A DNA stretch of 64,000 nt from Schmidtea nova. Lineage: Eukaryota. Positions 2 through 2,881 of this stretch are shown here, one piece after another. A program made the translations under genes and the position numbers. Numbering within the stretch: the stretch's first letter is position 1; every line of letters begins with the position of its first letter. The notes beneath the pieces were generated by a model. That model was not told where the DNA came from, ran no database searches, and was given only the letters and a program-made list of their open reading frames with translations. The stretch spans positions 558,868,001 through 558,932,000 of the forward strand of contig CM097882.1 in the NCBI GenBank assembly GCA_044892505.1, given 5' to 3'.

Positions 2-2881
2 TTTGACTGGATTACCTCCTTTACTTTGCAATTTGATGCTACTCCAACATGCTTCTTCATTATCTGCTCCTTGTGTTAATACTTGTACTGGTTTTCTTTT
101 ATCATCGGCTTCCGTTCCTTTCAATGTTGACAGCATCAGTATCAGCAATATTATGTCTTTTATTCGAGTTTTATGTAGACATGCTGTTCGTTTTTCATAG
201 TTTGAAGTTTCTTGCTTGGGTTCATCACTTTTGTTCCCAATTTCATCGTTATTGCTTTTTCCATCATCTTTCTCGTCTTTGTCATTGTTTCTGTTGGTAC
301 TTTCATGGTCTTCTTTCTTTGTTTTGCTGTTGTTATTCTCTTCATCTTCATCGTCCGGCTTATTGTGATCATCAGAACCACCCTCGGTTCCGTTTAAAAT
401 GTCGTCCTCGACATTTATTAATTTTATTATTTCCTCATATCTTTTAGCTATTTCGTCTGCTTCGGCTTTTATATTTGCTCTCTTGGTTATTTCATCTTTG
501 GCGTTGTTCCAGCTTCGGTGAATTCTGCTTTCTTTTATATTTTCTTTCCATATGATGACTTGCTGATATAATTCATGTCTTTTAGATCCGATTCTTTCTT
601 TTTCTTTTTTGTTGTTTGTAAATCTGAAATCAGGTCTTTGCAGCAATGCTTTAATTGTTTTACACATTTTCCATTTTCTTTTCATGGCTCTTTTCATTAT
701 CATATTTTCACCGTCTTCAAATCTGTCATTGACATTTATCACTCCTTCGTGCGTAACTGGATGTAACCATTTAATCATTTTTGCTGTTGTTTCGTCGGCA
801 TCTTTGTTCACTGCATTTACTAATGGATTTGGATCTGAACTGAGCACTTCAATATCTTCTTCTGTCGCATTTGACATAATATATTTGATTATTTGATGGT
901 TATTTGCTTGCACTGCATATGATAACACCGTTTCATTTTTATCATCTCTTTCTTTAAAACTTGATCCGGTTCTCATCAGTTCTGCTATGAGTTTCTTGGA
1001 TCCTCCTTTTTCAATTGCTATCATCAAGGGTGTTTGATCTTTCCAATTTTTCGTGTTGGTATGTTGTTTACACTTTTCCATGAGTTTTATGATTTCAAAC
1101 ATTCTCTGTTCATTCCCACTTTTTATTGCGTGGTACAATGGTATCTCATCTTTAAAACTGGCAATTGTAAATAATATTGGTAATCTTTCTTTTATGGTAT
1201 TCATCGCTTCTGTCGTTTCATTTCCTTTGGCATATTCCTCAACCATTAAGCTTACTCCTCCCAATATTTCGAATAGATTTTTACTTTTTGACCATTCTGG
1301 CATAATTTCTTTGGTAATCTCAATGATCAATTCCATCTTTTTGCGGTGCTCCATTTTTACATCGTCAACTACCTTAGGTTGTTCAGATATTGTTGTCGGC
1401 TGATTTACTTTTCTGCTCGCAGTTAGTATACGATGTAGCCAATCGTCATTTTTATTCTCTCGAAACATACATATTTGTCCTTTTCTGGTCATTTCTTGAT
1501 TTGATTGTTCTGTCGCTGTTTCTCTTGTGCGATTTTCTTCCATTTGGTGTTTCAACTTCATCGTATTCAAATCGATTACAGATCCTTTTAACCGTTTTGG
1601 TATTAAGTCTGTTCCAATAATGCATGAGGCACCCAGTTGTTTTATGATTGTCAAGTAAGTTGATATTTTTACATTTCTGTATTCGATGTCCGTCCATATT
1701 TTTCCAACGATATTGACAGATTCTTTGCTGCATGTTATTACGTCTACTGATGTTTTCTCGATGCATAACCGTAACATTTCTGGTATCATATCGATATCTA
1801 TTGCTGATATATTTGCGCCAGTATCTATCATCGCGTCTACTTTTACACCATTAACTTCGATGTTAATTGTAAGTGTTGGTCCAGCTGGAGTTTTCATCAT
1901 TGCAATTATCGTTGTTTTGGGATTATCTTCACCTGTCGCTTTTCTGGTCAACTCGCTTCCTGCAATTTTATTAACAGTTAATTTATTACTTGTTTCGATT
2001 TGTATCGGGGTTACACCGGTTTCCATATCATCATCCAGCGATTCTCCATCATATTTCAAGTGAAATGGTAAGTTAAATGGTAATCTCTCTTTTATCTCTT
2101 TGATCTTTGTTGTTAATGATACATTCATCTTTATTTCTTTTAGATTCGGAAATTGAATTTTCAATCTGCACATTTGTGGATCATTGTTTGTTTGTTCTAG
2201 TTGTTTCCATTTTCTCATGATGTCATCAAATTGTTTTGCATACCAAGGGCATAAACGTCTGCATTTCTCGATTTCTCTCACTATCAATCTCATGTTTGAT
2301 ATATTTGCACTATTTTTTATAACCCATTTTAGTAATTCAGTTGTTCTTTCACATTGATTTCCTGCACTCTTGCTTAGGTTACTGATTAATCGTTCGGTCT
2401 TTGACGTTTCCGTTTGTCTTGATCTTTCGAGCTTCGCTGATTTCCTCTTTTCTTCCGATTTTTGATTCATTTTCGTCATTTCTTCCATGGTAATGTTTAA
2501 CAATCTTTGTGCCACTTCTTCTAATTTGATTGTCGTAGATTCATCCCATTTCTTGTCCATACTACAGGTATCATCATTGCTTCTTCTTTCTCTTCTTTTT
2601 CGGCTATATTTCTCCACAAACTTCTTCTTTTCTTCTCCCTCCATATCTTTTACGGAAAATTCATATACATTTCCCTTTCTTTCAATTTCAACGTCTGATA
2701 ATTCGGTTATCATTTCATTTACTTTTCCTTCGATATTCTGTTGTAGTTGCATTTTCATTGTTATTACTTCTTTTTCTTCTTCCTGCAAATTATCTTCTAC
2801 CTTTGGACTGGTTATTTTCTGCTCTTCTTTTAATAAATTATTTTCTGAGTTTGCACTGGTAACTTTCTGATTCTCCTCCAT
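2..2881 (-). CDS. N-terminal >=960 aa of a giant retroelement polyprotein (coiled coil - retropepsin - ankyrin repeats - acidic linker - hydrophobic segment); open off the left window edge
   Basis: Manual translation from ATG 2881 (in-frame TAG just upstream) finds no stop down to position 2, which is why the ORF track omits it. It begins MEENQKVTSANSENNLLKEEQK. Protease: TINIEVNGVKVDAMIDTGANISAID...IIGTDLI (Asp codon 1825-1823). Ankyrin-like repeats: PLYHAIKSGNEQRMFEIIKL, KDQTPLMIAIEKGGSKKLIAELMRTGS, KNETVLSYAVQANNHQIIKYIM (about 1140-620). The hydrophobic plus-strand ORFs in the track are its antisense shadow. Confidence 0.9.
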   Translation of the reverse strand, partial: MEENQKVTSANSENNLLKEEQKITSPKVEDNLQEEEKEVITMKMQLQQNIEGKVNEMITELSDVEIERKGNVYEFSVKDMEGEEKKKFVEKYSRKRRERRSNDDTCSMDKKWDESTTIKLEEVAQRLLNITMEEMTKMNQKSEEKRKSAKLERSRQTETSKTERLISNLSKSAGNQCERTTELLKWVIKNSANISNMRLIVREIEKCRRLCPWYAKQFDDIMRKWKQLEQTNNDPQMCRLKIQFPNLKEIKMNVSLTTKIKEIKERLPFNLPFHLKYDGESLDDDMETGVTPIQIETSNKLTVNKIAGSELTRKATGEDNPKTTIIAMMKTPAGPTLTINIEVNGVKVDAMIDTGANISAIDIDMIPEMLRLCIEKTSVDVITCSKESVNIVGKIWTDIEYRNVKISTYLTIIKQLGASCIIGTDLIPKRLKGSVIDLNTMKLKHQMEENRTRETATEQSNQEMTRKGQICMFRENKNDDWLHRILTASRKVNQPTTISEQPKVVDDVKMEHRKKMELIIEITKEIMPEWSKSKNLFEILGGVSLMVEEYAKGNETTEAMNTIKERLPILFTIASFKDEIPLYHAIKSGNEQRMFEIIKLMEKCKQHTNTKNWKDQTPLMIAIEKGGSKKLIAELMRTGSSFKERDDKNETVLSYAVQANNHQIIKYIMSNATEEDIEVLSSDPNPLVNAVNKDADETTAKMIKWLHPVTHEGVINVNDRFEDGENMIMKRAMKRKWKMCKTIKALLQRPDFRFTNNKKEKERIGSKRHELYQQVIIWKENIKESRIHRSWNNAKDEITKRANIKAEADEIAKRYEEIIKLINVEDDILNGTEGGSDDHNKPDDEDEENNNSKTKKEDHESTNRNNDKDEKDDGKSNNDEIGNKSDEPKQETSNYEKRTACLHKTRIKDIILLILMLSTLKGTEADDKRKPVQVLTQGADNEEACWSSIKLQSKGGNPVK

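What the first reader, a model, noticed from the sequence alone, without database searches (positions are those of the whole stretch)
2..2881. Hidden >=960-aa ORF: protease + ankyrin polyprotein start of a giant retroelement
Seen: the minus-strand frame is open for the whole 2.88 kb and leaves the window. It has a DTG retropepsin at about aa 353, with no CCHC gag knuckle before it, followed by about 4-5 ankyrin-like repeats. Known: planarian Burro elements (Grohme et al. 2018) are about 30-kb Gypsy-type elements with one huge ORF and accessory domains; my recollection that one family carries ankyrin repeats needs checking. Inference: this protease is an extra N-terminal processing enzyme that releases an ankyrin module, which could act as a host-interaction effector as ankyrin proteins do in large DNA viruses.
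Basis: partly seen in the sequence, partly recalled or inferred. Interest (0 to 1): 0.8.

Follow-up and report, generated by a model that had tools for sequence, protein, structure and literature searches.

The report
Giant helper-dependent retroelement carrying survival genes
This gene is the pared-down core of a 25,000-base jumping gene that has lost its own copying enzymes, appears to borrow them from a larger relative, and keeps a set of intact genes resembling animal cell-survival signalling genes in over a thousand copies.

Summary
The ORF, the DTG protease (aa 353) and the ankyrin repeats are real. It is not the start of a giant polyprotein: it stops at 1036 aa, and does so in 10 of 12 other copies. 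It lies in a 24,979-bp LTR element (4.1-kb near-identical LTRs, TG..CA, 4-bp TSD, 18/18 tRNA-Pro PBS) with no gag capsid, env, RT, RNase H or integrase. ORF1 is an in-frame skeleton of a 4,893-aa Burro1-like polyprotein of the same genome. Its protease is the orthologue of that element's single pol protease (dN/dS 0.11), not an extra one. The two families share LTR ends, leader and 3' end at 90-98%, but coding DNA at only 65-76%. Eight more separate ORFs (RING, TRAF, IAP, coiled coils, membrane proteins) are mostly under purifying selection. Exact 22-mers count 1,473 sites against 251 for the putative helper. A second autonomous family keeps a homologous downstream cassette that the helper lacks. 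Verdict: a young, non-autonomous Burro-like satellite with a selected accessory cassette. Cross-mobilisation and anti-apoptotic function are inferred. A TNF-receptor-like reading of one membrane protein is only a lead.

The parts
8043..12147 (-). 5' LTR, 4,105 bp, TGTTGGG...CCCACCA. The 3' LTR lies left of the window (G000:C1:558855169-558859273). Whole element 24,979 bp, TSD TATT.
   Evidence: 4113 of 4115 aligned bases identical between the LTRs, a few flank bases included
8015..8032 (-). Primer-binding site, 18 of 18 complementary to the host tRNA-Pro(TGG) 3' end with CCA; 10 nt after the LTR end
3651..8014 (-). Long 5' leader shared with the autonomous relative (about 90-98% DNA identity). 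Holds the RING ORF, a 21-bp tandem array (3648-3949) and an N stretch (7464-7768).
4973..5455 (-). 160-aa ORF with an IAP-type C3HC4 RING at its C-terminus; 92% identical ORF in one helper copy, 27% homologue in family B
   Evidence: Pfam zf-C3HC4_3 E 1e-13
1..2881 (-). ORF1, 1036 aa (ends at G000:C1:558867771): in-frame skeleton of the Burro-like polyprotein. Followed outside the window by seven separate same-strand ORFs in L001: Q-rich 211 aa, TRAF 485, IAP 389, coiled coils 515 and 191, membrane proteins 274 and 264.
2021..2167 (-). SUMO/ubiquitin-like domain (aa 239-287), homologous to the helper's aa ~1400-1480
   Evidence: PF11976 E 0.005, below cut-off; 54% identity to the helper over aa 165-314
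1598..1867 (-). Retropepsin (aa 339-428), catalytic D353 at nt 1825; orthologue of the helper's only pol protease
   Evidence: DTG found in 21 of 22 other copies held; dN/dS 0.11 against the helper
641..1141 (-). Ankyrin domain, about five repeats (aa 581-747); in the helper it follows the integrase
2..163 (-). Signal-like hydrophobic stretch (aa 907-923) and start of a truncated FN3-like ectodomain, homologous to the helper's C-terminal membrane module

Best explanation
A non-autonomous, gene-bearing LTR retroelement of the Burro clade. SHOWN: LTRs, PBS and TSD; no gag capsid, env, RT, RNase H or integrase; ORF1 is four colinear pieces of the autonomous family-A polyprotein joined in frame; eight further separate ORFs; purifying selection on eight of nine ORFs; cis-acting DNA far closer to family A than coding DNA is. 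INFERRED: its RNA is packaged, reverse-transcribed from tRNA-Pro and integrated by family-A proteins. It arose long ago by internal deletion from an A-lineage ancestor that still had the downstream cassette kept today by family B, and has since kept its cis signals matched to family A by recombination. The retained protease most likely cuts ORF1 into SUMO-like, ankyrin and membrane-targeted products. The RING, TRAF and IAP proteins most likely act on host ubiquitin and cell-death signalling to keep alive the cell in which the element and its helper are expressed.
For: Structure. Missing genes: tblastn of helper gag, Smc, pre-env, env, RT-RH and IN against the whole element gave no hit. ORF1 is 1036 aa in 10 of 12 other copies, 1104 and 964 in two. 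Of the first 100 listed protease sites, 60 have the TRAF marker 2.6-3.2 kb downstream, too close for RT-IN. PBS-to-protease distance is 5.9-7.6 kb at 48 of 71 satellite sites and 13.3-13.7 kb at 9 of 13 helper sites. Colinearity: ORF1 45-185 ~ helper 454-603, 116-314 ~ 1297-1482, 303-444 ~ 2621-2762, 451-993 ~ 3783-4355. DNA identity to a helper copy: LTR ends 94-96%, PBS region 98%, leader 90%, 3' end 95%, coding pieces 65-76%. Selection: synonymous excess reached by at most 1 of 2000 spectrum-preserving shuffles for seven ORFs and 40 of 2000 for RING; dN/dS 0.11-0.26 against the helper. Counts: 1,473 against 251 exact 22-mer sites; 2,218 shared LTR-PBS junctions. Family B has RING-polyprotein-Q-TRAF-coiled coil-membrane ORF in the same order. 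TRAF matches TRAF1/2/5 (E 7e-25) and IAP matches cIAP1 (E 6e-13) in the PDB.
Against: Cross-mobilisation is deduced from shared cis signals only. Family B has the same PBS and similar termini, so it could also mobilise the element. The 264-aa membrane ORF shows no synonymous excess (687 of 2000 shuffles). The 12 copies were top hits, are related to each other, and were scored against the window copy, so the shuffle counts are not true probabilities. dS against the helper (1.1-1.7) is near saturation. The middle of the LTR is only 84-91% identical to helper LTRs. 37 of 100 protease sites had no TRAF marker within 20 kb. TRAF and IAP are lost or replaced in some copies (absent in 2 of 12; replaced by another ORF in 3 of 10 further copies), so they are not needed for every copy to spread. 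No protein function was tested.
Confidence: 0.8

Rival explanations
1. Division of labour: family A and this element act as a two-part retroelement. A supplies gag-env-pol and has lost the downstream cassette; the satellite supplies that cassette, plus IAP and receptor-like genes, in trans, and A benefits.
For: The helper copy tested lacks Q211, the TRAF RING-zinc-finger half, both coiled-coil ORFs and both membrane ORFs; self-sufficient family B has homologues of Q211, full TRAF and CC515. The satellite outnumbers A about six to one. The cassette is under selection.
Against: Selection on the cassette is equally explained by benefit to the satellite alone. A keeps its own MATH, SUMO-like, RING and ankyrin domains. 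Only two full helper copies were examined.
Confidence: 0.3
2. Interfering parasite: ORF1 products (post-nucleocapsid coiled coil, protease, ankyrin) enter helper particles and bias packaging or processing toward satellite RNA, like a defective-interfering genome; the cassette is of secondary importance.
For: The protease is kept under strong constraint (dN/dS 0.11) although the element has no capsid or pol of its own to process. Six-to-one excess over the helper.
Against: Does not explain selection on seven cassette ORFs. The protease may simply process ORF1.
Confidence: 0.2
3. One reading: start of an autonomous giant polyprotein with an extra N-terminal protease.
For: Open frame leaving the window, protease and ankyrins are real; the Burro kinship is real.
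Against: Stop at 1036 aa in the window copy and 10 of 12 others; no RT/IN in the element; the helper has one DTG motif, to which this protease aligns.
Confidence: 0.02
4. Domesticated host protease-ankyrin gene, or decaying deletion copies with no function.
For: No mobility genes; some copies carry deletions and stops.
Against: Near-identical LTRs with a TSD, 1,473 dispersed exact-match sites, 98-100% identity among the 40 scored copies, conserved stops and purifying selection.
Confidence: 0.03

Closest known systems
Burro1/GYPSM1 and Burro-2 to -4, giant Gypsy-like LTR elements of planarians (PMC6431247, section 7 read in full; Grohme et al. 2018 not held, not read)
   Same: The putative helper matches the described Burro1 layout: 4,893 against 4,873 aa, gag with three CCHC, MATH, SUMO-like, in-frame fusion-type env before the protease, RT, RNase H, integrase, ankyrin. 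The finding shares LTR ends, PBS and four polyprotein pieces with it. The review already names MATH, BIR, ankyrin and BCL2-like cargo and notes that accessory ORFs can swap with polyprotein subdomains.
   Different: The finding has no gag capsid, env, RT, RNase H or integrase, and carries nine separate ORFs, among them a full RING-zinc finger-MATH TRAF and a BIR-RING IAP. The section read describes no non-autonomous Burro. No Burro sequence was available for direct alignment.
Non- and semi-autonomous LTR partners in wheat: RLG_Quinta/Cereba (PMC11302176, abstract read); RLG_Sabrina_SA and RLC_Angela sub-populations (PMC9744471, passages read)
   Same: Shared LTR/PBS signals with diverged interiors, retained genes (GAG, or GAG-protease in Sabrina_SA), long co-evolution with an autonomous partner.
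   Different: Those keep GAG; this one drops the capsid and keeps protease, ankyrin and a 16.8-kb interior with host-signalling-type genes.
Large retrotransposon derivatives (LARDs; passage in PMC6431247)
   Same: Large non-autonomous LTR elements moved in trans.
   Different: The review says the interior of such elements rarely exceeds 10 kb and need not be coding; here 16.8 kb holds nine ORFs, eight under purifying selection.
Replication-defective transducing retroviruses that carry oncogenes (recalled, no call)
   Same: Helper-dependent, truncated gag-pol skeleton plus growth- or survival-type cargo.
   Different: Here the cargo is multi-gene, partly inherited from an autonomous sister lineage, and fixed in over a thousand genomic copies.

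Membership tests
LTR retroelement (cis features) | Direct LTRs with TG..CA ends and a short TSD | tested here: met
   4.1-kb LTRs, TGTTGGG..CCCACCA, TSD TATT; TTTC for a helper copy, ATTT for family B
LTR retroelement (cis features) | tRNA primer-binding site after the 5' LTR | tested here: met
   18 of 18 to host tRNA-Pro(TGG)+CCA, 10 nt from the LTR
LTR retroelement (cis features) | Polypurine tract before the 3' LTR | tested here: inconclusive
   No purine run by eye; the same 45-nt motif precedes the 3' LTR in the two helper copies
Autonomous Burro element | One polyprotein of about 4,900 aa or more with gag, env, PR, RT, RNase H, integrase | tested here: not met
   ORF1 is 1036 aa; no gag, env, RT-RH or IN hit in the element. 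Met by families A and B.
Burro clade (descent) | Homology of protease and accessory domains to a Burro-type polyprotein | tested here: met
   40-63% identity in three colinear blocks and 33% in a fourth to the 4,893-aa family-A polyprotein
Burro clade (descent) | Sequence match to published Burro1-4/GYPSM1 | not testable with these tools
   No Burro sequence was returned by the protein searches; Grohme et al. not held
Non-autonomous LTR partner | Cis signals shared with an autonomous family while mobility genes are missing | tested here: met
Non-autonomous LTR partner | Mobilisation in trans by that family | not testable with these tools
   Inferred from shared signals and near-identical LTRs
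TRAF (485-aa ORF) | RING, TRAF zinc fingers, coiled coil, MATH in that order | tested here: met
   MATH E 2e-22 over cut-off; RING and zf-TRAF E 2e-4, under cut-off; TRAF6 RING region E 4e-14, TRAF1 E 7e-25
IAP (389-aa ORF) | BIR plus C-terminal RING | tested here: met
   BIR E 3e-15, RING E 9e-11; cIAP1 best PDB match
TNF receptor of BCMA/TACI/Grindelwald type (274-aa ORF) | Signal peptide, one cysteine-rich domain, one membrane helix | tested here: inconclusive
   Topology fits and six cysteines are invariant in four homologues. ESM features rank Grindelwald/TNFR clusters first but at 0.83, a lead only. Foldseek ranks TACI first at E 2.4, not significant. No Pfam or PDB sequence match.

The most novel reading that the evidence does not exclude
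A functionally two-part retroelement in an animal. An env-bearing Burro family has off-loaded its accessory cassette onto a dependent partner that outnumbers it about six to one. The partner delivers a TNF-receptor-like, TRAF and IAP survival module in trans, swaps cassette genes between copies, and shares its receptor-like gene with a Maverick/Polinton family.
Probability: 0.3. Interest if true: 0.88.

Novelty: new variant of a known kind. Interest (0 to 1): 0.72.

Why it matters
The Burro review proposed that these elements meddle with host apoptosis and ubiquitin systems and called that hard to test. Here the candidate effectors sit in separate ORFs on an element with no replication genes, so selection on them cannot come from the element's own enzymes and each can be knocked down or assayed alone. 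The family is young and large: 1,473 exact sites at about 25 kb each would be roughly 3% of the assembly if most are full length (inference). At least 1,189 sites carry its TRAF marker, so part of the TRAF/MATH expansion reported in planarians (PMC6109357, PMC7586133; passages read) may be element-borne. That link is an inference; those papers concern another dataset.

Tried and rejected
Protein searches of the 5.8-billion set found only generic ankyrin proteins for ORF1 (2 hits at near length; 2 at longer length) and nothing for the TRAF ORF, although the PDB search matched TRAFs easily, so these blanks reflect low sensitivity. A metagenome scan with the ankyrin alignment found no relative. 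No RNA holder was listed. The four runs laid were contigs from one study; they cover all 30 bins but say nothing on expression or splicing. The complex prediction of the TRAF trimer with the tail of the 274-aa membrane protein gave no verdict (score 0.02). VIA-align with the cysteine-rich model gave nothing at Z 5 or more. The ESM Atlas gave only unnamed clusters for the 264-aa protein. Two other large-ORF Gypsy families (3,367 and 3,214 aa, one copy each) were rejected as helpers: other LTRs, no such PBS, no DNA match. I first read the cassette as freshly captured host genes and dropped that for Q211, TRAF and CC515 once family B showed homologues in the same order; the origin of IAP, CC191 and both membrane ORFs is open. 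Three look-ups of earlier scan findings returned nothing. Literature searches showed no description of a non-autonomous Burro. Grohme et al. 2018 with its supplements, and Repbase, could not be read and may describe one. In the supplements of PMC11410931, three files had no hit and one PDF could not be searched.

Full report
Observation. The minus-strand frame from 2881 is open through the window edge. Pfam places a retropepsin at aa 339-428 with DTG at D353, ankyrin repeats at aa 582-672 and a weak SUMO-like domain at aa 239-287. A structure model shows five ankyrin-type helix pairs at aa 581-747, and Foldseek returns ankyrin proteins. No CCHC knuckle matched.

What lies beyond the window. 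The window is G000:C1:558868001-558932000. The ORF stops 76 codons past the edge, at 1036 aa. Seven separate same-strand ORFs follow: a Q-rich 211-aa ORF, a 485-aa TRAF (RING, zinc fingers, MATH), a 389-aa IAP (BIR, RING), coiled-coil ORFs of 515 and 191 aa, and two membrane proteins of 274 and 264 aa. A 160-aa RING ORF lies upstream. All nine sit between 4.1-kb LTRs, window 12147-8043 and a copy about 8.7-12.8 kb left of the window, with 4113 of 4115 aligned bases identical, TG..CA ends and the TSD TATT. The element is 24,979 bp. Ten bases after the 5' LTR is an 18-nt site fully complementary to the host tRNA-Pro(TGG) end with CCA.

The layout is the family's design, not decay. In 12 other copies (top hits) ORF1 is 1036 aa in 10, and 1104 and 964 aa in two. 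Two of the 12 lack TRAF and IAP through deletions, and others have single broken ORFs. Of the first 100 listed sites of a protease 22-mer, 60 have a TRAF 22-mer 2.6-3.2 kb downstream, 3 have one further off and 37 have none within 20 kb. Helper gag, Smc-like, env, RT-RNase H and integrase segments find no tblastn hit in the window's element.

The autonomous partner. An RNase H search showed a family with open frames near 4,990 codons, two of them 15 kb from matches to this element's LTR end. These copies encode 4,893 aa: gag, three CCHC, MATH, a fusion-glycoprotein env, one DTG protease, RT, RNase H, integrase, ankyrin and FN3. This fits Burro1 as described in PMC6431247 (section 7 read: 4,873 aa, three CCHC, SUMO-like, in-frame env, ankyrin). 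I call it family A; the name Burro1-like rests on architecture, not on alignment. ORF1 is four colinear blocks of this polyprotein joined in frame: aa 45-185 to 454-603 (33%), 116-314 to 1297-1482 (46%), 303-444 to 2621-2762 (63%) and 451-993 to 3783-4355 (40%). The protease is therefore the ordinary pol protease, next to the ankyrins because RT-RH-IN is gone. DNA identity to a helper copy is 94-96% at the LTR ends, 98% across the PBS, 90% in the leader and 95% before the 3' LTR, but 65-76% in the coding blocks; the LTR middle is 84-91%. Exact-match counts are 1,473 for the satellite protease, 251 for the helper protease, 1,189 for the satellite TRAF and 2,218 for the shared LTR-PBS junction. 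Of 18 hand-picked PBS sites, most without an adjacent marker, 10 were satellites, 2 helpers, 4 showed only the RING ORF and 2 showed nothing related.

Selection. Against the helper, dN/dS is 0.11 (protease), 0.19 (ankyrin) and 0.26 (SUMO-like), with dS 1.1-1.7. Among the 12 copies, synonymous variants exceed a spectrum-preserving control in eight of nine ORFs: at most 1 of 2000 shuffles for seven, 40 for RING, and 687 for the 264-aa ORF, which shows no signal. The copies are related and were chosen as top hits, so these counts are indicative. The DTG motif was found in 21 of 22 other copies held.

Origin of the cassette. A second autonomous family (B; 29.9 kb, 3.2-kb LTRs, 5,488 aa, same PBS) has the order RING, polyprotein, Q-type ORF (33%), TRAF (37%), coiled coil (31%), membrane ORF. 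One copy was read whole and two more downstream of the polyprotein. The family-A copy tested lacks Q211, the TRAF N-terminal half, both coiled-coil and both membrane ORFs, yet ORF1 is closer to A than to B (protease 70 against 55%, ankyrin 52 against 28%). The simplest history is that an A-lineage ancestor had the cassette, the satellite kept and enlarged it while losing its replication genes, and A lost it. The cassette is modular: in 3 of 10 further copies a 482-aa membrane protein replaces Q211, TRAF and IAP.

The 274-aa membrane protein. It has a signal peptide, six cysteines invariant in four homologues, and one membrane helix. ESM features rank Grindelwald and other single-domain TNF receptors first (0.83, a lead only), and Foldseek puts TACI first but at E 2.4. 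Pfam, PDB sequence search and VIA gave nothing. I put a TNF-receptor-like identity at a little over even odds. A homologue, 59% identical over 34 residues, lies beside a protein-primed DNA polymerase in a high-copy Maverick/Polinton-like element. The capsid-type ORFs there were recognised from recalled motifs only. The direction of transfer is unknown.

Mechanism. Shown: anatomy, missing genes, colinearity, shared cis signals, selection, copy number. Inferred: packaging, reverse transcription and integration by family-A proteins (0.8); self-processing of ORF1 by its protease (about 0.6); pro-survival action of RING, TRAF and IAP, from the known roles of these families and from planarian TRAF knock-downs that raise cell death (PMC7586133, passages read) (about 0.6); benefit to the helper (0.3). 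How the downstream ORFs are expressed is unknown. Each is followed within 75 nt by an AATAAA/ATTAAA hexamer except the 274-aa ORF, but the strand is A-rich and I ran no control.

Comparison and novelty. Non-autonomous LTR partners that keep genes are known in wheat (PMC11302176 abstract; PMC9744471 passages), and Burro cargo domains are known (PMC6431247). Searches showed no pol-less Burro with a multi-gene cassette, but Grohme et al. 2018 and Repbase could not be read. I rate it a new variant of a known kind, interest 0.72.

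Noticed in passing
L021:2303-2866 (-) with L050 (G000:C3:15.04-15.06 Mb): A high-copy Maverick/Polinton-like element (pPolB E 2e-27) carries a homologue of the 274-aa cysteine-rich membrane protein; 150 of 150 scored matches were 96-100% identical to it.
   Followed up: partly
L062:2120-3565 (-), also L054, L064: Variant cassette: a 482-aa protein with signal peptide, an EGF-like cysteine pattern (by eye, no Pfam hit) and one membrane helix replaces Q211, TRAF and IAP.
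   Followed up: partly
L078-L082 (G000:C1:293.63-293.66 Mb): Second autonomous Burro-like family, 5,488-aa polyprotein with two ankyrin blocks, downstream TRAF cassette, and two ORFs (159 and 198 aa) inside each LTR.
   Followed up: partly
L009-L014, L018-L020: Three satellite copies have a longer LTR type (about 5.5 kb) holding a 190-aa ORF that the window's LTR lacks.
   Followed up: no
window 8015-8042 and L001:1274-1300: The sequence just before the 3' LTR is partly the reverse complement of the spacer and PBS after the 5' LTR, and there is no clear polypurine tract; both helper copies have the same motif.
   Followed up: no
G000:C1:459.61-459.66 Mb (L047-L049): tRNA-Pro(TGG), the primer tRNA, lies in a 308-bp tandem array; 899 matches to its 3' end in the genome.
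   Followed up: partly
L060:6-3614 (+): A 1,203-aa ORF joins an Hsp70 fragment, ubiquitin, DUF1759 and a weak aspartyl protease match: probably another LTR element with captured host domains.
   Followed up: no
L070-L077: Two further Gypsy families with in-frame env-like regions (3,367 and 3,214 aa), short LTRs and a downstream ORF of about 480 aa.
   Followed up: partly
window 45497-46906 (+), 53325-56627 (-), 62567-63544 (-): Other mobile-element remains: a pPolB fragment; a broken element with CCHC, RT and DUF7047 matches; a hAT transposase fragment.
   Followed up: no
window 12140-15384 and L002: The flanks on the two sides match each other in inverted orientation (93-95%), so the element may have inserted into a foldback or TIR element.
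   Followed up: no
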